Counted from the first letter of the stretch, positions 27,823 through 38,802 are shown. The stretch is DNA of 57,213 nucleotides from Minisyncoccota bacterium (GCA_028718965.1 JAQUKS010000001.1:1-57213); one strand, 5' to 3'. The notes: a model not told the origin generated them from the sequence alone. Numbers and translations: made by a program.

Positions 27823-28851
27823 TTAAAATCCCCTTTTGCGCTTTCTCAAAAATTCAAACCATCTGATAAAGGTGTATCTTGCGCTAAGCGGCAGGTCCTG
27901 CGTTTTAACGTAAGGAGTGCTCTGGCCCCCGAAACCTTGCTTGAAAAGCGTAAGCCCGGCCCAGGGGTGGCCCTTCAGTTTTTTCGGGGCAACATCGGCC
28001 ACGCCCCAAAAATTATAGAGAGAGCAGCCCCTTGATCTGGCTTCTTTGATGGCTTCCCATTGCATCAGATAGGCAGCGGGTATTTTCGAGGTTATCGAGG
28101 CTCCCTGATGATAGAATCCTGTCCCCTGCCAGTAAATGACAATGGCCGAAGCCAGGCAGACCCCTTTGTGTTTTGCCAGAAAGATCACCGCCTGATCGTC
28201 TTTTGAAAAAGCCGAAAATTCGTTTTGCAGGTATTTCAAAGAAAAAGGATGAAAATTATGTTTTTTCACTGTTTCCATATAGAGCCGGTTGAACTGTTCG
28301 ACGTCTTTTATGTCGCGCGATCTGATTATCTCAAGATTGGGCGTTTTCTGGCCCTGTTTGATAAGGTAGCGGGTGGTTTTTCGCATGGCTGACAAAAGCT
28401 CTTCTTCGGAAGGAGTTATGTCGAGCAGCCATGAGAGCTCCGGGTGAACGTGCATTGGCGCTTGTTTGAATTTGAGCTCTTTGAAAAGTTGCTCGTTCGC
28501 TTCGCTCCTCTCCCATATTGGAGCTATTCTTGCGTAATGAACGTTCTCTTTGGTTCTCTTGAGCTCCTTGACCAGCGATGACAATATCTCAAGCCTCTCT
28601 TCTCCGCTTGAATCAGGCTTTACGGCCGGGCCGTGCGGCACCAGCAAAAAATCGCCTTTTTTTGATTTTACTTTTATTACCAGGCACGCGGCCGTAAGAT
28701 TTTGTCCTTTAAAAAAACCAAGGCGCTGAACGGTTTCACCGAGCGTTTTCTGAAACTCCCCCCAGTTCCAGCTTTGCAGAAAAGTTTTCTCGCGGCAATC
28801 AAGCAGGAAGTTCTCCCAGGCGTCTTTGCTTGTTATTTCTTTTATTTCCAT
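27823..28851 (-). CDS. FemAB-family peptidoglycan peptide-bridge aminoacyltransferase
   Basis: FLQSWNWGEFQ N-terminus, LYNFWGV and 342 aa of typical FemX/MurM length. Confidence 0.75.
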   Translation of the reverse strand: MEIKEITSKDAWENFLLDCREKTFLQSWNWGEFQKTLGETVQRLGFFKGQNLTAACLVIKVKSKKGDFLLVPHGPAVKPDSSGEERLEILSSLVKELKRTKENVHYARIAPIWERSEANEQLFKELKFKQAPMHVHPELSWLLDITPSEEELLSAMRKTTRYLIKQGQKTPNLEIIRSRDIKDVEQFNRLYMETVKKHNFHPFSLKYLQNEFSAFSKDDQAVIFLAKHKGVCLASAIVIYWQGTGFYHQGASITSKIPAAYLMQWEAIKEARSRGCSLYNFWGVADVAPKKLKGHPWAGLTLFKQGFGGQSTPYVKTQDLPLSARYTFIRWFEFLRKRKRGF

Positions 28852-28857
28852 AACGGA

Positions 28858-30108
28858 TTAAAACATCTTTAAAAGACTGACGATTTTTTGCGCTTCCTCT
28901 AGGCCGATGCCGATGTGGGTAGGCAGATTTATCAGTGTTTGGGCCGCCTTCTCGGCCCTGGGGCAGGAGCCCCTTTCATAGCCGATTTTTCGCAGGTCGG
29001 TGTCTTGTGGCACCACGGCCGTCTTACGCCAGCCGTCGCCCAGCAAAATATTCATATTGCGGGCTTTTCGCAGGATTTTTTCAGGGTCGGCGCCTTGGGA
29101 CAAAACAGGAAACTTCATAAAAACCGGCTCCCTGGAATCTTGAGGCCCGCTGAAAGGCATGACAAACGAGGTGTTTTTCAGCTGCTGCAGATAAAAATCA
29201 GCTGTTTGTTTTCTGTGTTCGTTGAATCTGTCCAGTTTCTTGAACTGATAAACGGCCAGGCTGGCCAACCCCGCGGGCATTTTTTTGATAAGCCAGTCAG
29301 GCATTATCCCCTGCTTTTCGCTTCGTGAAACCGGCCGTAAAAGCATTTTTGTTTTTTGCAAAAAATTAAGGGCCAGCCCTCCCCCCGAAGACCAAAAAGG
29401 CAAAATAAACTCGCTTATAAGCAAAGGATTGAAAAGCTGGCGGGACGTCCACCAGCGCGAAGGATAGCCAAGCCCTTCCTGAAATTTTCTTATACCATCG
29501 GCGATCACCGGATTTACCGAAGAAGCGACTCCCCCGCAAACCGATGAGATGATTTTGTCGCGGCCCAGGCTGAAAAAGCTCGCGTCTCCGAATTTACCGC
29601 AGTATTCTCCCTGGTATTTGGCGCCCAGAGAATGGGCGCAATCCTCGATAAAGAAAAGATTGTTTTGCTCGGCTATCTTTTTCAGCTCTTCCACTTCGGC
29701 CGGCCAGCCGAAAGTATGCTGAATCACCACTGCCTTGCTCTTTGGCGTGATTTTTCTTTTCAAGTCTTCGGGGTCGATGTTAAGCGTCTGGTCTATGTCA
29801 ACGAAAACCGGCCTGGCTTTCAGCTTGAGTATCGGAGCCACCATAACCGCGCACGTAAGCCCCTGCACCAGCACCTCATCACCCTCCTTGATGCCCAGGG
29901 CCTCCAAGATGGCCAAAAAGGCCACCCTGCCCCCGTTAAAAGCGAAACACGGCCTGTCCAAAAGGCCGCTAAAAGCCTTTTCCAGGGATTGATAAGCGTC
30001 TTTGCCCTTTCCCTCTTGTTTGAAAAGAATGTCTTTTATCAGCTTAACGTCGTCCGGCTCGGTGTTGGGGCAAAGGGCCGAAGATATTGTTTTTATTTTC
30101 TTTGGCAT
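28858..30108 (-). CDS. DegT/DnrJ/EryC1/StrS family PLP-dependent aminotransferase
   Basis: EDCAHSLGA...FFSLGRDKIIS (PLP lysine region). Confidence 0.8.
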   Translation of the reverse strand: MPKKIKTISSALCPNTEPDDVKLIKDILFKQEGKGKDAYQSLEKAFSGLLDRPCFAFNGGRVAFLAILEALGIKEGDEVLVQGLTCAVMVAPILKLKARPVFVDIDQTLNIDPEDLKRKITPKSKAVVIQHTFGWPAEVEELKKIAEQNNLFFIEDCAHSLGAKYQGEYCGKFGDASFFSLGRDKIISSVCGGVASSVNPVIADGIRKFQEGLGYPSRWWTSRQLFNPLLISEFILPFWSSGGGLALNFLQKTKMLLRPVSRSEKQGIMPDWLIKKMPAGLASLAVYQFKKLDRFNEHRKQTADFYLQQLKNTSFVMPFSGPQDSREPVFMKFPVLSQGADPEKILRKARNMNILLGDGWRKTAVVPQDTDLRKIGYERGSCPRAEKAAQTLINLPTHIGIGLEEAQKIVSLLKMF

Positions 30109-35346: not shown

Positions 35347-36603
35347 TTAAGGCGCTTTGATCTCTTTCAGGCCGAAATAGCCCTGCAATGCCTCGGGCAC
35401 TTTTACTGATCCGTCCTTTTGCTGGAAATTCTCAAGTATGGCGATGATGGGCCGCATTGAAAAAGCAGTGCCGTTCAAAGTATGGACAAACTCCGGCTTG
35501 TTGGTTTTGCTGTCTTTGTATCTTACGTTAAGCCGCCTGGCCTGAAAATCAGTGCAGTTCGAGGTGGAATGGGTTTCACGGTATTTGTCCTGCCCGGGCA
35601 TCCAGGTTTCGATGTCGTATTTTTTGGCCGCCGGCACGCCCAAATCGCCCGTGCAAATGTCGATTACCTGGTAATGCAAACCCAGATCATCCATCAGTTC
35701 CTGTTCAGCGGCGCGCAGCGCCTCGTGCTCCTTGGCCGAGTCTTCGGGCTTGCAAAAAACAAACATCTCTATTTTATCAAACTGGTGCACCCTTAACATA
35801 CCTTTGGTGTCTTTGCCGAAGCTGCCCGCCTCGCGCCTGAAACAAGTAGAAAACCCCACGTAACGCAAAGGCAAATCCGCTTCATTGAAAGTTTCGCCGG
35901 CGTGCATCGCCCCGAGGGTTTGCTCTGAAGTGGCGGTAAGATACAGATTGTCTTTTTCCAGATGATAAGCCTCTTCGTCGTCGGTTTGCTGCAGATAGCC
36001 CATGGCCCAGGCCATTTCCGGCTTAATCATTACCGGCGGAATTATCGGAATAAAGCCTTTTTTAACCAGTTTTTCAAAAGCGAAATTTATCAAAGCGAAC
36101 TCCAGCAAAACCCCCTGGCGTTTTAAATAATAAAAGCGGCTGCCCGTCACCTTGCCCGCCCGCTCGGTATCAAGAATATCCAAAGCCTCCCCTATCTCCC
36201 AGTGCTCTTTGGGCTTGAAATCAAACTTCGGCTTTTCTTTTACCTTGCCAAATCCCTTTACTTTGTTTTCCGAATCGTCTTTGCCCACAGGCACTTCGTC
36301 AAAAGCCGGATTGGGGATTTGACGCATTAAAGCGTCGAAATCCTGTTCGATTTCTTCCAAAGCCGCCTCCTGAACCTGAAACTCTTCTTTCAAGGCCTTG
36401 GCTTTTTCAATGGTTTCCCGGCTCGGCACGCCCTTGCCGCTTATTTTCTTTTGTTCGGCTTTTATCTGCTCGCTTCGAGCCATAATCTCGCGGCGCTTTT
36501 TATCCAGTTCCAGCAGTTTATCAATGTCAACGTCAACGCCTTTGTTCCTGGCGCCCTCTTTGACCTTTTCCGGATTCTCCCTGATGTATTTTATATCTAA
36601 CAT
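35347..36603 (-). CDS. serS: Seryl-tRNA synthetase
   Basis: N-terminal coiled coil and class II motifs (FRREAGSFGKDTKGMLRVHQF; TLNGTAFS). Confidence 0.95.
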   Translation of the reverse strand: MLDIKYIRENPEKVKEGARNKGVDVDIDKLLELDKKRREIMARSEQIKAEQKKISGKGVPSRETIEKAKALKEEFQVQEAALEEIEQDFDALMRQIPNPAFDEVPVGKDDSENKVKGFGKVKEKPKFDFKPKEHWEIGEALDILDTERAGKVTGSRFYYLKRQGVLLEFALINFAFEKLVKKGFIPIIPPVMIKPEMAWAMGYLQQTDDEEAYHLEKDNLYLTATSEQTLGAMHAGETFNEADLPLRYVGFSTCFRREAGSFGKDTKGMLRVHQFDKIEMFVFCKPEDSAKEHEALRAAEQELMDDLGLHYQVIDICTGDLGVPAAKKYDIETWMPGQDKYRETHSTSNCTDFQARRLNVRYKDSKTNKPEFVHTLNGTAFSMRPIIAILENFQQKDGSVKVPEALQGYFGLKEIKAP

Positions 36604-36661
36604 GTGTTTTTATTTTACACTGGTCTGGTTAGTTTGCACTGGTCAGATCGGTGCAATATTA

Positions 36662-36880
36662 TTATAAAATAAAACGCCCTTTTATACTACTCAAGGACGA
36701 AATTCTCGTGGTGCCACCTTGTTTTATTGACTCGTTGCCAAGCCAATCTCTTTGAGTTTGCGAATCCCGGGACTCGCAAACTCCGGCTGTAACGGGCTTA
36801 CCCGAAGCAGGTTATTGGTTTGGACCCTTTCCCCTGCCCAGCTCCAAGGGTGGAACACCCCTTCTCATCGCTTTTTTATT
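36662..36880 (-). promoter_or_regulatory. T-box-like tRNA-sensing leader of serS
   Basis: On the minus strand, in order:
- GA/K-turn-type start AGCGATGAGAAGG.
- Short hairpin with loop GUGUUCCA (UCC-A, a Ser codon plus purine).
- F-box-like CCCGTTACA.
- 13-bp hairpin (36754-36783) containing a G.U pair that exists only on the minus strand.
- T-box core AAGGTGGCACCACGAG (UGGC).
- Terminator CGTCCTT/AAGGGCG followed by TTTTATTTTAT. Confidence 0.6.
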
Positions 36881-36886
36881 GGTTTT

Positions 36887-36914
36887 ATTATAATCACAAA
36901 ACAGATTAAGTCAA
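36887..36914 (-). promoter_or_regulatory. Near-consensus sigma70-type promoter for the serS leader
   Basis: Minus strand reads TTGACT-16 nt-TATAAT. Confidence 0.6.
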
Positions 36915-36980: not shown

Positions 36981-37115
36981 TTGACAATGATTGAAAAATG
37001 AATATACTTAAAACAATGGATTATCGGTAAAGGCCTGCCCTTTAGGCAGAGATTGGCTCGGGCAACCGAGATAGCCGAAAAATTCCATTCCCCCCTTAGA
37101 GGGGTTTTATTTTAC
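36981..37115 (+). ncRNA. Candidate structured small RNA of about 100 nt, class unknown
   Basis: TTGACA-16 nt-TATACT (36981-37008). A closing helix GGATTATCGG/CCGAAAAATTCC encloses two hairpins: CTGCC-cttta-GGCAG, and CTCGG-GCAA-CCGAG with a GNRA loop. Then CCCCT-tag-AGGGG is followed by TTTTATTTT. No downstream plus-strand gene. Confidence 0.4.
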
Positions 37116-37520
37116 AACGGAAATTAAAAATTTTTTTCTTAATGCTTTTTCAAAAATATCTTTTGCTTCTTCTCTCCCAAGAAATGATGCCCTTATGCAA
37201 CCAGCCCACCTGTCAGCCAAACGGATGACTGGCTCGCTTTCATCTCTCGCGCTTCTTATAAAATCAATTCTGATACCTTCCAATCTTAAAGCGTTAGTTA
37301 GCTCCCTGGCCTTTTTCTTATCTATGCCGTCAATATAAACAATGGCCTTATATTTATCTTTTGCCTTACTGCGAAACGTTAATCTAAAATGAAAAACTCG
37401 TCCTTAAAGACCATTAATGTTCGGGCCGAATATGTCAACAAGCCAGGCAAAACCCTTAAAACAAACAAAACCAAAACATCTTCTGGCTTCCAGCTCTGCT
37501 TTTTGCGCCCACTACCGAAT
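37107..37520 (-). pseudogene. Decayed gene remnant, DUF3800-like C-terminal part (no start codon, frameshifted)
   Basis: An open frame without ATG reads ...KYKAIVYIDGIDKKKARELTNALRLEGIRIDFIRSARDESEPVIRLADRWAGCIRASF... (D-S-x-x-x-P-x-x-x-LAD-x-x-AG pattern). The upstream part continues in another frame. Confidence 0.4.
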
Positions 37521-37522
37521 AT

Positions 37523-37690
37523 TATTTGATTTTACGCACGCCTTTGAAGGTTCGGGTGTTGGCCTTTTGGTCCATGAATTGCTTTCCCTCGTCCCGCTTT
37601 GTCCAGCGGTTGTTCCTGGGATTATGGACCTGATCCCTGTCCTTAACCGCGCCAACTCTCCCCGGGCCTTTTGGCGGATTTGTCGCCATA
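37523..37690 (-). CDS. Small basic protein (55 aa)
   Basis: ATG ORF reading MATNPPKGPGRVGAVKDRDQVHNPRNNRWTKRDEGKQFMDQKANTRTFKGVRKIK. It resembles small conserved hypothetical proteins I recall seeing in many bacteria. It is below the ORF-track cutoff. Confidence 0.45.
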
Positions 37691-38022
37691 TTTGAAAAAT
37701 GACCTTATACTGAAATTGTAAAATTCCCTGAACAGCCCGTCAAATCAGGTTTTGCACAGACCCGCGCGCGTGATTCTGCTATTGATCACCAAAATGTAAA
37801 TTAAAAGCCCTGCTGAATTTAATCAAAGGGCCATTGTTACTGCTACATTGATGGGAGCAGACGCCCAAGGTTTCTGTTTTACGCGTCCGGTTCGCAAACC
37901 ATAAACACCGGCTCATACTTTGCCAAGGCGATTTTCCTGGCCGCACCCTGCTCGTTCGGGGCAAGGATCCCTACAAGAGTTGTTTCTGTTGCCAAGCGGA
38001 CTCTTACCGCTCCGTGGGGAGA

Positions 38023-38256
38023 TTACCTCCTGGTTATCCTCGTCCAGATCAGGGCGCCTGCGAGCGCAGCCCAAAGAGCTGGCGTTAGGACAATCACTCT
38101 CCAAAGGTCTCCGTGCGCCCAAAGAGATAGCTCATATGCTATCCATGGGGCCGGTGAGTTGGAGAGCGACGCTAACCGAGTTAACGCCCATAGGACTGCC
38201 AAAAACAGCCCTATGCCCACCGATAATATAGTGGCGAACCACCATATTATTCTCAT
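38023..38256 (-). CDS. Small membrane protein (77 aa)
   Basis: Strong SD (AAAGGAGGTGAcaaaATG) at the internal Met of the 96-aa ORF, and 2-3 hydrophobic helices. It lies in a locally GC-rich patch. Confidence 0.45.
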   Translation of the reverse strand: MRIIWWFATILSVGIGLFLAVLWALTRLASLSNSPAPWIAYELSLWAHGDLWRVIVLTPALWAALAGALIWTRITRR

Positions 38257-38379
38257 TTTGTCACCTCCTTTTGTTGAGAAAAACGAGCCTAAAGAACGAA
38301 CGTTTAAACGCACCGAAATACAATACCATATTTTTTGATTTCGTCAAGCCTTTTGCCCCGCGCAGCAACCAAAGATAAC

Positions 38380-38802
38380 TCATTTTCTGCTTTTTAACTT
38401 TCTGCTGCCCAAATTTTCAAAGAATCTTAACAAGTAGCCGTCAGGGTCTTTTACCAAAAACTCTTTGTTGCCAAGCAAGCGATCGCCCTGCCTGTACCAG
38501 TTATCTTGCGGCTCGATAAAAACAGGATAATCATTCGCTTTCAGCAAGCTCAATAATGGCTTTATGCTTTTTACTTCGATTTGAAAATTGACTCCCCTGC
38601 CGAAAGGATAGCCCAACTCGCCCGTAAGCCAGCCGCTTTTGGTTTGCTCGATCATAATTTGGCTGCCGTTGAAAGAAAGAAACGCGAATTTTGATTCTTC
38701 GCGGCTGTACTCAACCCTGAACCCCAATAATTCTTTGTAAAACCTTAAACTTTTCTCAAAATCCGAAACGCTCAATTCCGGAATAAGCTTGTTGAATTTC
38801 AT
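38380..38802 (-). CDS. VOC (glyoxalase/bleomycin-resistance) family protein
   Basis: LSVSDFEKSLRFYKELLGF and DPDGYLLRF, the paired beta-alpha-beta-beta-beta pattern. Confidence 0.75.
   Translation of the reverse strand: MKFNKLIPELSVSDFEKSLRFYKELLGFRVEYSREESKFAFLSFNGSQIMIEQTKSGWLTGELGYPFGRGVNFQIEVKSIKPLLSLLKANDYPVFIEPQDNWYRQGDRLLGNKEFLVKDPDGYLLRFFENLGSRKLKSRK

What the first reader, a model, noticed from the sequence alone, without database searches (positions are those of the whole stretch)
36662..36914. T-box-like riboswitch on serS with a very short Stem I, UCC specifier candidate and UGGC discriminator match
Downstream of a TTGACT-16-TATAAT promoter, the serS leader carries these elements in the canonical order:
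1. A GA/K-turn-type AGCGAUGAGAAGG.
2. A short hairpin whose loop GUGUUCCA presents UCC (Ser) followed by the usual purine.
3. An F-box-like CCCGUUACA.
4. A 13-bp Stem III-like hairpin.
5. The T-box core AAGGUGGCACCACGAG.
6. A terminator (CGUCCUU/AAGGGCG) followed by a U-run.

The bulge UGGC would pair with a G73 discriminator, as in bacterial tRNA-Ser. Stem I lacks the long distal platform and resembles the ultrashort Stem I class described for actinobacterial ileS T-boxes. Here, however, it is coupled to an apparent transcription terminator. T-boxes are mostly known from Firmicutes and a few other phyla, so one in this type of reduced genome is notable.
Basis: partly seen in the sequence, partly recalled or inferred. 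Interest (0 to 1): 0.65.

Follow-up and report, generated by a model that had tools for sequence, protein, structure and literature searches.

The report
Miniature serine T-box leader on serS
The leader of the seryl-tRNA synthetase gene in this candidate-phyla-radiation (Patescibacteria) bacterium looks like a real tRNA-sensing T-box riboswitch whose tRNA-reading arm is reduced to a 5-bp hairpin showing the serine codon UCC and which is coupled to a transcription terminator, a combination the papers I could read describe only as isoleucine-specific, translational switches of Actinobacteria.

Summary
On the minus strand, 36914..36664 holds a promoter, a full-length T-box match, a terminator and a U-run, 60 nt upstream of serS (35347..36603).

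- **Rfam:** RF00230 matches end to end (model 1-219) at 71.6 bits, E about 1e-13 to 1e-15. This is below the gathering score of 93, because 76 consensus positions inside Stem I are replaced by 10 nt.
- **Organism:** a Patescibacteria/Paceibacteria MAG.
- **Relatives:** twelve further serS-linked leaders of the same miniature type were found in other Patescibacteria-type MAGs. The T-box structure is supported by compensatory changes: 99-100% of cells pair in close relatives, and 31 of 35 pairs covary across nine leaders.
- **Specificity:** the Stem I end loop contains UCC in 13 of 13 leaders. The antiterminator bulge is UGGC in 11 and UGGU in 2, both able to pair with a G73 discriminator. Two distant leaders head operons with a serine-pathway-like or phosphatase gene followed by serS.
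- **Switch:** the antiterminator (-3.3 kcal/mol) and terminator (-8.3 kcal/mol) share CGUCCUU.
- **Best reading:** a Ser-specific T-box with an ultrashort Stem I, acting by transcription attenuation.
- **Novelty:** a new variant of a known kind. The ultrashort class is described as ileS-only and translational.
- **Not tested:** the cognate tRNA gene and any biochemistry.

The parts
36887..36914 (-). Sigma-70-type promoter TTGACT-16-TATAAT for the serS leader
   Evidence: 11 of 12 consensus matches. By eye, promoter-like hexamers sit at the same position in L001 and L002 (TTAGAA-18-TATAAT and TTAGAA-18-TACAAT; sequences).
36840..36872 (-). Ultrashort Stem I. It consists of the closing helix AGC/GCU, a K-turn motif (GAU bulge, GA...GA), the 5-bp helix AAGGG/CCCUU and the 8-nt end loop GUGUUCCA.
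   Evidence: In the Rfam alignment, 76 consensus positions inside Stem I are replaced by 10 nt. The stem pairs AAGGG/CCCUU in the window and AGAGG/CCUCU in five relatives, giving two compensatory pairs.
36851..36854 (-). Specifier candidate UCC (36854..36852) followed by the purine A (36851)
   Evidence: UCC is present in the Stem I end loop of 13 of 13 related leaders. It is followed by A or G in all six close relatives. The downstream gene is serS.
36806..36838 (-). Stem II: outer helix GGCAGG/CCUGCU, purine-rich internal loops and inner helix GG/CC
   Evidence: Aligned to Rfam Stem II. Four of the 6 outer pairs and 1 of the 2 inner pairs show compensatory changes, and 100% of cells pair.
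36786..36804 (-). Stem IIA hairpin plus F-box: CGGGUAAGCCCGUUACAGC
   Evidence: Aligned to Rfam Stem IIA and the CCGUUA box. CGGNUAAGCCCGUNANAGC is invariant in six diverse leaders.
36754..36783 (-). Extra 13-bp hairpin, a lineage-variable insertion between the F-box and Stem III
   Evidence: Treated as an insertion by the Rfam model. It folds as a 13-bp hairpin. L001 and L002 have unrelated sequences at this position that also fold into hairpins.
36726..36747 (-). Stem III: AUUGGCU / AGUCAAU with loop UGGCAACG
   Evidence: Aligned to Rfam Stem III. It has 7 pairs, with compensatory changes at 2 of them in the three-sequence alignment.
36692..36721 (-). T-box sequence and antiterminator: helix A1 CAAGG/CCUUG, 7-nt bulge UGGCACC (36716..36710) and helix A2 ACGA/UCGU
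   Evidence: Aligned to the Rfam antiterminator. The named structure evaluates to -3.3 kcal/mol. The first pair of A2 is A-U in 3 close relatives and G-C in 3. The bulge is invariant.
36664..36699 (-). Intrinsic terminator: CGUCCUU - 11-nt loop - AAGGGCG, then UUUUAUUUU
   Evidence: The named hairpin evaluates to -8.3 kcal/mol, and its 5' arm is the 3' strand of the antiterminator. A hairpin followed by a U-run comes after the T-box in all 10 leaders folded. The same is seen by eye in the three found later.
35347..36603 (-). serS, seryl-tRNA synthetase (418 aa), the regulated gene
   Evidence: Pfam Seryl_tRNA_N plus tRNA-synt_2b. It is 100% identical to an NCBI protein named serine--tRNA ligase from a 'Candidatus Pacebacteria' MAG.

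Best explanation
This is a serine-specific T-box riboswitch with an ultrashort Stem I that most likely controls serS by transcription attenuation.

Proposed steps, each marked shown or inferred:
1. Transcription starts about 10 nt upstream of the K-turn, from the TTGACT/TATAAT promoter (inferred).
2. The first roughly 90 nt fold into a compact decoding module: a K-turn-bearing Stem I whose end loop shows UCC followed by a purine, Stem II, and Stem IIA with the F-box (fold supported by covariation).
3. The anticodon GGA of tRNA-Ser pairs with UCC (inferred). There is no distal Stem I platform to hold the tRNA elbow (shown). By analogy with the mycobacterial ileS T-box, Stem II would therefore have to reinforce the codon-anticodon helix (inferred).
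4. If the tRNA is uncharged, its 3' end G73-C-C-A pairs with UGGC in the 7-nt bulge (inferred). This would stabilise the otherwise weak antiterminator (-3.3 kcal/mol), and RNA polymerase would read through into serS.
5. If the tRNA is charged or absent, the segment CGUCCUU instead pairs with AAGGGCG, forming the more stable terminator (-8.3 kcal/mol) before the U-run, and transcription stops (energies and shared segment shown; outcome inferred).
For: **Family match.** RF00230 matches over the full model at 71.6 bits, E=1.2e-15 regionally and 1.4e-13 window-wide. It is the only such hit in the window.

**Regulated gene.** The downstream gene is serS.

**Close relatives.** Five close homologous leaders were found: L001, L002, L086, L088 and L091, scoring 96-152 bits with my own model.
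- On the six sequences, 99% of cells pair and 10 pairs have compensatory changes. None of 500 shuffles reached either value. Slid controls pair only 29-48%.

**Distant relatives.** With more distant leaders (nine sequences), 96.7% of cells pair and 31 of 35 pairs covary. Slid controls pair 29-44%.

**Specificity.**
- UCC is in 13 of 13 Stem I end loops, although loop length (6-9 nt) and the other bases vary.
- The bulge is UGGC in 11 and UGGU in 2. Both C and U can pair with G73.
- The L056 leader heads an operon of an unknown gene, a 2-hydroxyacid-dehydrogenase+HAD fusion (SerA/SerB-like) and serS. The L059 leader heads a histidine-phosphatase gene and serS.

**Switch.**
- The terminator and antiterminator share CGUCCUU, at -8.3 versus -3.3 kcal/mol.
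- A hairpin plus U-run follows the T-box in all leaders folded.

**Precedent from papers.** Ser T-boxes with specifier UCC (Clostridia) and a Ser T-box with bulge UGGU are reported (PMC8002221). The ileS ultrashort decoding module (K-turn Stem I, S-turn Stem II, IIA/B pseudoknot) is described in PMC10651847.
Against: - **Rfam threshold.** The RF00230 score is below Rfam's gathering score (71.6 versus 93).
- **Weak terminator.** It has 7 bp, an 11-nt loop and -8.3 kcal/mol. The simple terminator scan did not list it.
- **Alternative Stem I register.** Folded alone, the window's Stem I prefers a register-shifted 7-bp hairpin with a UUC triloop. That fold would bury the last C of UCC and the following A. 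Its z-score is only -1.1. The relatives' sequences do not allow this register.
- **Stem II S-turn.** The window has AAUA and most close relatives AUAA where the Rfam consensus has AGUA, so an S-turn is not established.
- **tRNA not seen.** No tRNA-Ser gene could be examined for this genome or any Patescibacteria locus.
- **Patchy distribution.** Seven of the 10 nearest SerS relatives fetched from assemblies lack the leader. Only 10 of 80 genome loci have one.
- **Codon rule not cross-checked.** No member with another amino-acid specificity was found.
- **Alignment bias.** The covariation counts on A4 and A6 come from alignments fitted to my model, which I derived by eye from three of the sequences.
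- **No experiments.**
Confidence: 0.8

Rival explanations
1. It is a T-box with an ultrashort Stem I that acts on translation, like the actinobacterial ileS class. The 3' hairpin would act as a sequestrator rather than a terminator.
For: All ultrashort T-boxes described so far are translational (bioRxiv 10.1101/2023.02.28.530422; PMC7583486). The terminator here is weak. In the distant relative L059, the 3' arm of the hairpin contains GGAGG only 8 nt before the AUG, so that leader could act on both levels.
Against: - In the window, the hairpin is followed by UUUUAUUUU, and the start codon lies 60 nt beyond the U-run.
- No Shine-Dalgarno-like sequence lies before the AUG, and none is in either alternative helix.
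- In L002 a whole 214-aa ORF lies between the leader and serS.
- A U-run follows the hairpin in all leaders folded.
Confidence: 0.08
2. It is a decaying relic of a canonical T-box that has lost the distal part of Stem I and no longer regulates.
For: The leader is absent from most near relatives, and L090 shows a clean deletion of it. In L002, Stem IIA and the F-box region have diverged (UGUAAAAGCAACGUUA).
Against: - The short Stem I keeps its pairing through compensatory changes.
- The UCC-purine, the K-turn motif, the bulge UGGCACC and helix A1 are invariant in six relatives whose SerS is about 83-87% identical to the window's.
- The same miniature architecture recurs in distant lineages.
- A relic would not maintain 99% pairing.
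Confidence: 0.06
3. The T-box is real, but the specifier is a different triplet of the loop, for example UUC (Phe) or CCA/CCG (Pro).
For: UUC is present in 12 of 13 loops, because most loops read UUCC.
Against: - UCC is in 13 of 13 loops, while L065 (AAUCCAA) has no UUC.
- From general knowledge, bacterial tRNA-Phe and tRNA-Pro have A73, which would pair with UGGU but not with UGGC. Eleven of 13 bulges are UGGC.
- The regulated genes are serS and serine-pathway-like genes.
- In the six close relatives, UCC sits directly before a purine and the closing pair, which is the expected specifier position.
Confidence: 0.03
4. It is a chance resemblance in an AT-rich intergenic region.
For: The hit is below Rfam's gathering score.
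Against: E=1.4e-13 for the whole window. The match covers the full model in the right order and on the right strand, directly upstream of an aminoacyl-tRNA synthetase gene. Homologous leaders with covariation exist.
Confidence: 0.01

Closest known systems
Ultrashort (US) Stem I T-box class of actinobacterial ileS genes (Mycobacterium smegmatis and M. tuberculosis ileS; Sherwood, Grundy and Henkin 2015, as described in PMC7583486, PMC10651847 and bioRxiv 10.1101/2023.02.28.530422)
   Same: - Stem I is cut down to a K-turn plus a short helix, with the specifier in the end loop.
- There is no elbow-binding distal platform.
[quoted passage not shown]
- Stem III and a bulged discriminator helix follow.
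   Different: - Specificity is Ser (UCC, bulge UGGC) rather than Ile.
- The regulated gene is serS rather than ileS.
- The expression platform is a terminator hairpin with a U-run rather than a Shine-Dalgarno sequestrator.
- The host is Patescibacteria rather than Actinobacteria.
- An extra variable hairpin lies between the F-box and Stem III.
- The Stem II S-turn consensus is not clearly kept.
Canonical transcriptional T-box leaders (Rfam RF00230), including Ser T-boxes of Firmicutes (serS, serA and serC; specifier UCC in Clostridia, AGC in Bacillus and Paenibacillus; PMC8002221)
   Same: - The order of elements is the same: K-turn, specifier followed by a purine, Stem II, IIA with the F-box, Stem III, and the T-box sequence with a 7-nt bulge.
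- The terminator shares a strand with the antiterminator.
- The UCC specifier and a C or U opposite G73 are as in known Ser T-boxes.
- Autoregulation of an aminoacyl-tRNA synthetase gene is typical.
   Different: - About 66 nt of Stem I are missing, namely the specifier internal loop, AG bulge and distal loop that bind the tRNA elbow.
- The review PMC7583486 says this platform is generally required by transcriptional T-boxes.
- As a result the score falls below Rfam's gathering threshold.
glyQS T-box (the minimal transcriptional T-box of Bacillus and Geobacillus)
   Same: Both are reduced T-boxes that act by transcription attenuation.
   Different: The reduction is the opposite one. [quoted passage not shown] It captures and decodes tRNA with a long Stem I (PMC10651847). 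This leader keeps Stem II and IIA and has lost the long Stem I.

Membership tests
T-box leader (Rfam RF00230) | Covariance-model score at or above Rfam's gathering score (93 bits) | tested here: not met
   71.6 bits, so not listed at the gathering threshold. The match is nonetheless full-length, with E=1.2e-15 and 1.4e-13. The deficit comes from the deletion inside Stem I. All related leaders that Rfam detected also score below 93, at 49-65 bits.
T-box leader (Rfam RF00230) | Conserved T-box sequence forming an antiterminator with a 7-nt bulge that starts UGGN | tested here: met
   CAAGG-UGGCACC-ACGA...UCGU-CCUUG at 36721..36692. The bulge is invariant in six relatives, and helix A2 covaries between A-U and G-C.
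T-box leader (Rfam RF00230) | A mutually exclusive, more stable terminator (or sequestrator) that shares the 3' strand of the antiterminator | tested here: met
   CGUCCUU is in both helices. The terminator is -8.3 and the antiterminator -3.3 kcal/mol, and a U-run follows. A hairpin plus U-run is present in the relatives.
T-box leader (Rfam RF00230) | Specifier codon in Stem I that matches the amino acid of the regulated gene, followed by a purine | tested here: met
   UCC-A lies in the Stem I loop upstream of serS. UCC is in 13 of 13 related loops, followed by a purine in 11 of 13 and by C in L056 and L059.
T-box leader (Rfam RF00230) | K-turn (GA motif) at the base of Stem I | tested here: met
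   The sequence fits the K-turn pattern: helix AGC/GCU, 3-nt bulge GAU, and tandem GA...GA. It is aligned to the Rfam GA-motif columns. This is a sequence-level test only.
T-box leader (Rfam RF00230) | Distal Stem I platform (AG bulge plus distal loop) that stacks on the tRNA elbow | tested here: not met
   Seventy-six consensus positions are replaced by 10 nt, and Stem I ends in an 8-nt loop. The same is true in all relatives, with 7-10 nt in place of 74-76.
T-box leader (Rfam RF00230) | Stem II, Stem IIA/B and F-box (CCGUUA) | tested here: met
   These are aligned by Rfam. Stem II and IIA are supported by compensatory changes. The F-box CCCGUUA is present. The IIB pseudoknot pairing was not resolved.
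T-box leader (Rfam RF00230) | S-turn motif in Stem II (consensus AGUA opposite GAA) | tested here: inconclusive
   The window has AAUA opposite GGAAA. Four close relatives have AUAA, L088 has ACAA and L091 has AAAA. The internal loop is purine-rich, but the consensus G is missing.
T-box leader (Rfam RF00230) | The genome encodes a cognate tRNA whose anticodon pairs with the specifier and whose discriminator pairs with the bulge N | not testable with these tools
   The window holds only tRNA-Lys(UUU). No tRNA-Ser is present in any Patescibacteria locus fetched. The tRNA-Ser(GGA) seen in an Acidimicrobiia locus has G73. That bacterial tRNA-Ser generally has G73 is general knowledge.
T-box leader (Rfam RF00230) | Read-through that depends on uncharged tRNA | not testable with these tools
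   This needs in vitro transcription or a reporter assay.
Ultrashort (US) Stem I T-box class (actinobacterial ileS) | Short Stem I with the specifier in its end loop and no elbow-binding platform | tested here: met
   The class definition is quoted from bioRxiv 10.1101/2023.02.28.530422.
Ultrashort (US) Stem I T-box class (actinobacterial ileS) | [quoted passage not shown] | tested here: not met
   The gene is serS. The loop triplet is UCC, and the bulge UGGC does not fit A73.
Ultrashort (US) Stem I T-box class (actinobacterial ileS) | Translational control through a Shine-Dalgarno sequestrator and antisequestrator | tested here: not met
   The platform is a terminator hairpin plus U-run, 60 nt before the AUG. 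No Shine-Dalgarno sequence lies in either helix.
Ultrashort (US) Stem I T-box class (actinobacterial ileS) | Found in Actinobacteria | tested here: not met
   The window's SerS is 100% identical to a protein of a 'Candidatus Pacebacteria' MAG. Its nearest relatives are Paceibacterota, Gribaldobacteria and Patescibacteria MAGs.

The most novel reading that the evidence does not exclude
Patescibacteria (CPR) carry a previously undescribed sub-family of T-boxes that are serine-specific, have an ultrashort Stem I and act by transcription attenuation. If so, contact with the tRNA elbow is not needed for a co-transcriptional T-box decision, contrary to the current generalisation. This sub-family is missed by Rfam-threshold annotation. 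The lineage-variable hairpin inserted before Stem III may compensate, by buying time or by touching the tRNA, for example the long variable arm of tRNA-Ser.
Probability: 0.55. Interest if true: 0.7.

Novelty: new variant of a known kind. Interest (0 to 1): 0.6.

Why it matters
**For T-box mechanism.**
- Current reviews state that transcriptional T-boxes generally need a long Stem I, whose distal platform speeds tRNA capture before RNA polymerase reaches the terminator.
- They also state that ultrashort Stem I elements belong to translational, ileS-only switches of Actinobacteria (PMC7583486; bioRxiv 10.1101/2023.02.28.530422).
- A conserved terminator-coupled ultrashort T-box for serine, in a different phylum, would be a natural counter-example. 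The kinetic argument could then be tested directly by in vitro transcription with tRNA-Ser.

**For annotation and CPR biology.**
- Every leader found here scores below Rfam's gathering threshold, so these T-boxes would probably be missed by pipelines that apply the Rfam cut-off.
- It is one of the few cis-regulatory RNAs that can be assigned in these reduced, uncultivated bacteria.
- A miniature module that reads tRNA-Ser may also be useful for engineering.

Tried and rejected
1. **Metagenome pattern scan.** I scanned metagenome contigs for AAGCGATGA-N-TGGAGC-N-AAGCNNCGTTA. The only match (L081) lies in sequence with no T-box features, so it is a chance hit.
2. **Cognate tRNA.** I looked for tRNA-Ser in the window and in 84 loci. 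None was found in any Patescibacteria locus, so the cognate tRNA could not be checked.
3. **Other specificities.** I looked for ultrashort T-boxes of other amino acids. My model R1, run over 85 sources (643 kb), found only serS-linked leaders. The loci are all centred on serS, so this says little about other genes.
4. **Weak second hit.** An R1 hit at window 28798..28989(-) (21.7 bits) spans the junction of two ORFs and has no T-box sequence, so it was rejected as chance.
5. **Regex false positives.** Motif hits in L013 and L054 showed no T-box features when read, and neither Rfam nor R1 reported a T-box there.
7. **Stem IIA/B pseudoknot.** I tried to define it from covariation by eye, and no convincing IIB pairing emerged.
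8. **Literature.**
   - Three searches that required T-box together with a CPR or Patescibacteria term returned no paper.
   - In a looser search, no listed paper contained 'T-box'.
   - A fourth search on metagenomes and phyla found nothing relevant.
   - The two original Henkin-lab PNAS papers are not held. The definition of the ultrashort class therefore rests on later open papers.

Full report
**What is in the sequence.**
- A promoter, TTGACT-16-TATAAT, lies at 36914..36887 with 11 of 12 consensus matches.
- AGCGAUGA (36872..36865) and GGAGCU (36845..36840) form a K-turn pattern: helix AGC/GCU, bulge GAU and tandem GA/GA.
- A 5-bp helix AAGGG/CCCUU closes the loop GUGUUCCA (36858..36851).
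- CGGGUAAGCCCGUUACAGC lies at 36804..36786.
- A 13-bp hairpin lies at 36783..36754.
- CAAGGUGGCACCACGAGAAUUUCGUCCUUG lies at 36721..36692.
- CGUCCUU-loop-AAGGGCG lies at 36699..36675, followed by UUUUAUUUU.
- The ORF 35347..36603(-) starts 60 nt after the U-run. It is seryl-tRNA synthetase (Pfam Seryl_tRNA_N plus tRNA-synt_2b).

**Is it more than chance?**
- At Rfam's gathering thresholds the window yields only a tRNA.
- With E-value reporting, RF00230 (T-box) matches 36877..36690(-) over the whole model (positions 1-219) at 71.6 bits. E is 1.2e-15 for the 501-nt region and 1.4e-13 for the whole window.
- The score is below the gathering score of 93 for one visible reason: 76 consensus positions in the interior of Stem I are replaced by 10 nt.
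A Stem II lies at 36838..36806. The hairpin homologous to Stem III is AUUGGCU...AGUCAAU at 36747..36726. The 13-bp hairpin is an insertion relative to the model.

**Organism.** The SerS protein is identical to an NCBI entry from a 'Candidatus Pacebacteria' MAG whose contig has the window's length. The nearest relatives in a species-level genome collection are Paceibacterota and other Patescibacteria MAGs. The guess of a reduced genome was therefore right.

**Related leaders.**
- Among the 80 species-representative serS loci closest to this SerS, ten have a T-box in front of serS or its operon: L001, L002, L056, L058, L059, L065, L068, L074, L079 and, cut at its 5' end, the Bacillota locus L028 (motif scan; Rfam; my model R1). 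L028 cannot be judged for Stem I. The other nine have the miniature Stem I.
- Among ten still closer SerS relatives (about 83-88% identity) fetched from assemblies, three have the leader (L086, L088, L091) and seven do not.
- All leaders that Rfam detects score below its gathering score, at 49-65 bits. Each has the same replacement of 74-76 Stem I positions by 7-10 nt.
- The leaders fall into three groups.
  - Group A is the window with L001, L002, L086, L088 and L091. It has a large Stem II and an extra hairpin.
  - Group B is L058, L065, L068, L074 and L079. In most of these, Stem II is only a small hairpin.
  - Group C is L056 and L059 from Gottesmanbacteria.
- Several records in group B are labelled Gammaproteobacteria or Pseudomonadales. 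L065, whose leader resembles theirs, is labelled Patescibacteria. I did not verify these labels.

**Structure support.**
- I wrote a structure of 35 pairs (Stem I, II, IIA, III and antiterminator helices A1 and A2) on three spliced sequences.
  - All cells pair and 11 pairs carry compensatory changes.
  - Sliding the partners by 1-3 columns gives 28-49% pairing.
- On the six group-A leaders aligned to the model:
  - 99% of cells pair and 10 pairs have double changes.
  - No shuffle out of 500 reached either value.
- On nine leaders from all groups:
  - 96.7% of cells pair and 31 of 35 pairs have double changes.
  - Slid controls pair 29-44%.
- The last two alignments were fitted to my model, so they lean towards it. 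The size of the effect and the slid controls still make the fold convincing.
- The inserted hairpin has unrelated sequences in the window, L001 and L002, and each folds into a hairpin.

**Specificity.**
- The Stem I end loops are GUGUUCCA, UUUUCCG, UUUUUCCG, AAUUUCCG, UUUUCCG, AUUCCG, ACUUUCCC, AAUUCCC, CUUCCAA, AAUCCAA, AUUCCA, CUUUCCA and CUUUUUCCA.
- UCC is the only triplet present in all 13. UUC is in 12.
- In group A, UCC is always followed by a purine and then the closing pair.
- The bulge begins UGGC in 11 leaders and UGGU in 2. C and U both pair with G.
  - From general knowledge, G73 is the discriminator of bacterial tRNA-Ser. The one tRNA-Ser(GGA) I could read, from an Acidimicrobiia locus, has G73.
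  - tRNA-Phe and tRNA-Pro have A73 (general knowledge).
- Gene context agrees.
  - L056's leader precedes an unknown gene, a 2-hydroxyacid-dehydrogenase+HAD fusion (SerA/SerB-like) and serS.
  - L059's leader precedes a histidine-phosphatase-family gene and serS.
- Ser T-boxes with specifier UCC, and a Ser T-box with a UGGU bulge, are reported in PMC8002221.

**Expression platform.**
- The named antiterminator evaluates to -3.3 kcal/mol and the terminator to -8.3 kcal/mol.
- They share CGUCCUU, so they exclude each other.
- A hairpin followed by a U-run comes after the T-box in every leader folded.
- There is no Shine-Dalgarno-like sequence before the serS AUG, and none within either helix.
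- In L002 a 214-aa ORF separates the leader from serS.
- Transcription attenuation is therefore the better reading. The terminator is weak, however, and in L059 its 3' arm includes GGAGG next to the AUG, so a translational component cannot be excluded for that leader.

**Mechanism.** Shown in silico:
- family homology;
- the fold;
- the invariant UCC;
- the alternative helices.

Inferred:
1. tRNA-Ser(GGA) pairs with UCC.
2. Stem II backs the codon-anticodon helix, as in the M. tuberculosis ileS T-box (PMC10651847), because the elbow-binding platform is absent.
3. The uncharged 3' end G-C-C-A pairs with UGGC and holds the antiterminator.
4. Otherwise the terminator forms and transcription stops.

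**Comparison with what is known.**
- The decoding module (K-turn Stem I with an apical specifier, Stem II, and IIA with the F-box; about 90 nt) has the architecture of the actinobacterial ultrashort ileS class.
[quoted passage not shown] - This leader differs from the ultrashort class in amino acid, gene, expression platform and phylum. It differs from canonical transcriptional T-boxes in lacking the platform.
- I therefore file it as a T-box and as a new variant, not as a member of the ileS ultrashort class.
- I found no paper in the held library linking T-boxes to CPR or Patescibacteria. The library is incomplete, so prior description elsewhere cannot be excluded.

**Caveats.**
- The isolated Stem I of the window prefers a shifted 7-bp register with a UUC triloop. 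The relatives do not permit that register.
- The S-turn consensus in Stem II is not kept.
- The IIB pseudoknot was not resolved.
- The cognate tRNA could not be checked.
- No non-Ser member was found.
- The leader is patchily distributed and can be lost cleanly (L090).

Noticed in passing
window 36981..37116 (+ strand): A promoter-like site, TTGACA-16-TATACT (36981..37008), points away from the serS leader. About 100 nt without an ORF follow, ending in a strong plus-strand terminator, CCCCCCTTAGAGGGG followed by TTTTATTTT. The stretch folds into a closed multi-helix structure (-33.3 kcal/mol, z -2.2). It contains AGAGATTGGCTCGGGCAACCGAG, which by my count matches 20 of 23 positions of the T-box Stem III segment AGAGAUUGGCUUGGCAACGAG, in inverted genomic orientation. 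It may be a small RNA or a partial inverted duplication of the leader. There is no Rfam match.
   Followed up: partly
window 37300..38380: About 1.1 kb has no credible ORF on either strand. The longest is 103 aa, the translations have odd composition, and none of the three longest ORFs tested matches Pfam. No Rfam match was found, and no similarity to any fetched locus. This may be a degraded gene or an unknown non-coding region.
   Followed up: partly
L090 2236..2503 compared with L001 2600..3003: L090, a close SerS relative, keeps the post-terminator spacer of L001 (two blocks at 89-95% identity). The whole riboswitch is missing. The junction reads AUAAAAGCG|GAUUUUGUUUUA. That is the first bases of the T-box joined to the tail of the terminator, as if deleted between the short repeats GCGAU.
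   Followed up: partly
L002 1985..3001: In this relative, the T-box and its terminator lie about 0.8 kb upstream of serS. An acidic 214-aa ORF without Pfam match lies in between. Stem IIA and the F-box have diverged (UGUAAAAGCAACGUUA). The leader may now control the inserted gene plus serS, or may be decaying.
   Followed up: partly
L056 133..4251 and L059 2163..4233 (Gottesmanbacteria): Ultrashort Ser T-boxes head small operons here. In L056 the operon is an unknown 293-aa gene, a 2-hydroxyacid-dehydrogenase+HAD fusion (SerA/SerB-like, 582 aa) and serS. In L059 it is a histidine-phosphatase-family gene and serS. In both, UCC is followed by C rather than a purine. In L059 the terminator's 3' arm carries the GGAGG of the next gene.
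   Followed up: partly
window 36604..36665 (- strand), between the terminator and the serS start: This spacer contains the direct repeat GACCAGUG twice. It folds unusually well for its composition (-11.4 kcal/mol, z -4.0). L086 has a related single hairpin (ACACUGGUCAGACCGGUGU) at the same place. Its function is unknown.
   Followed up: no
L058, L065 (Stem I region): In these group-B leaders, an additional small hairpin seems to be inserted on the 3' side of the Stem I base. This would make a three-way junction where the K-turn normally closes. It was seen by eye only.
   Followed up: no
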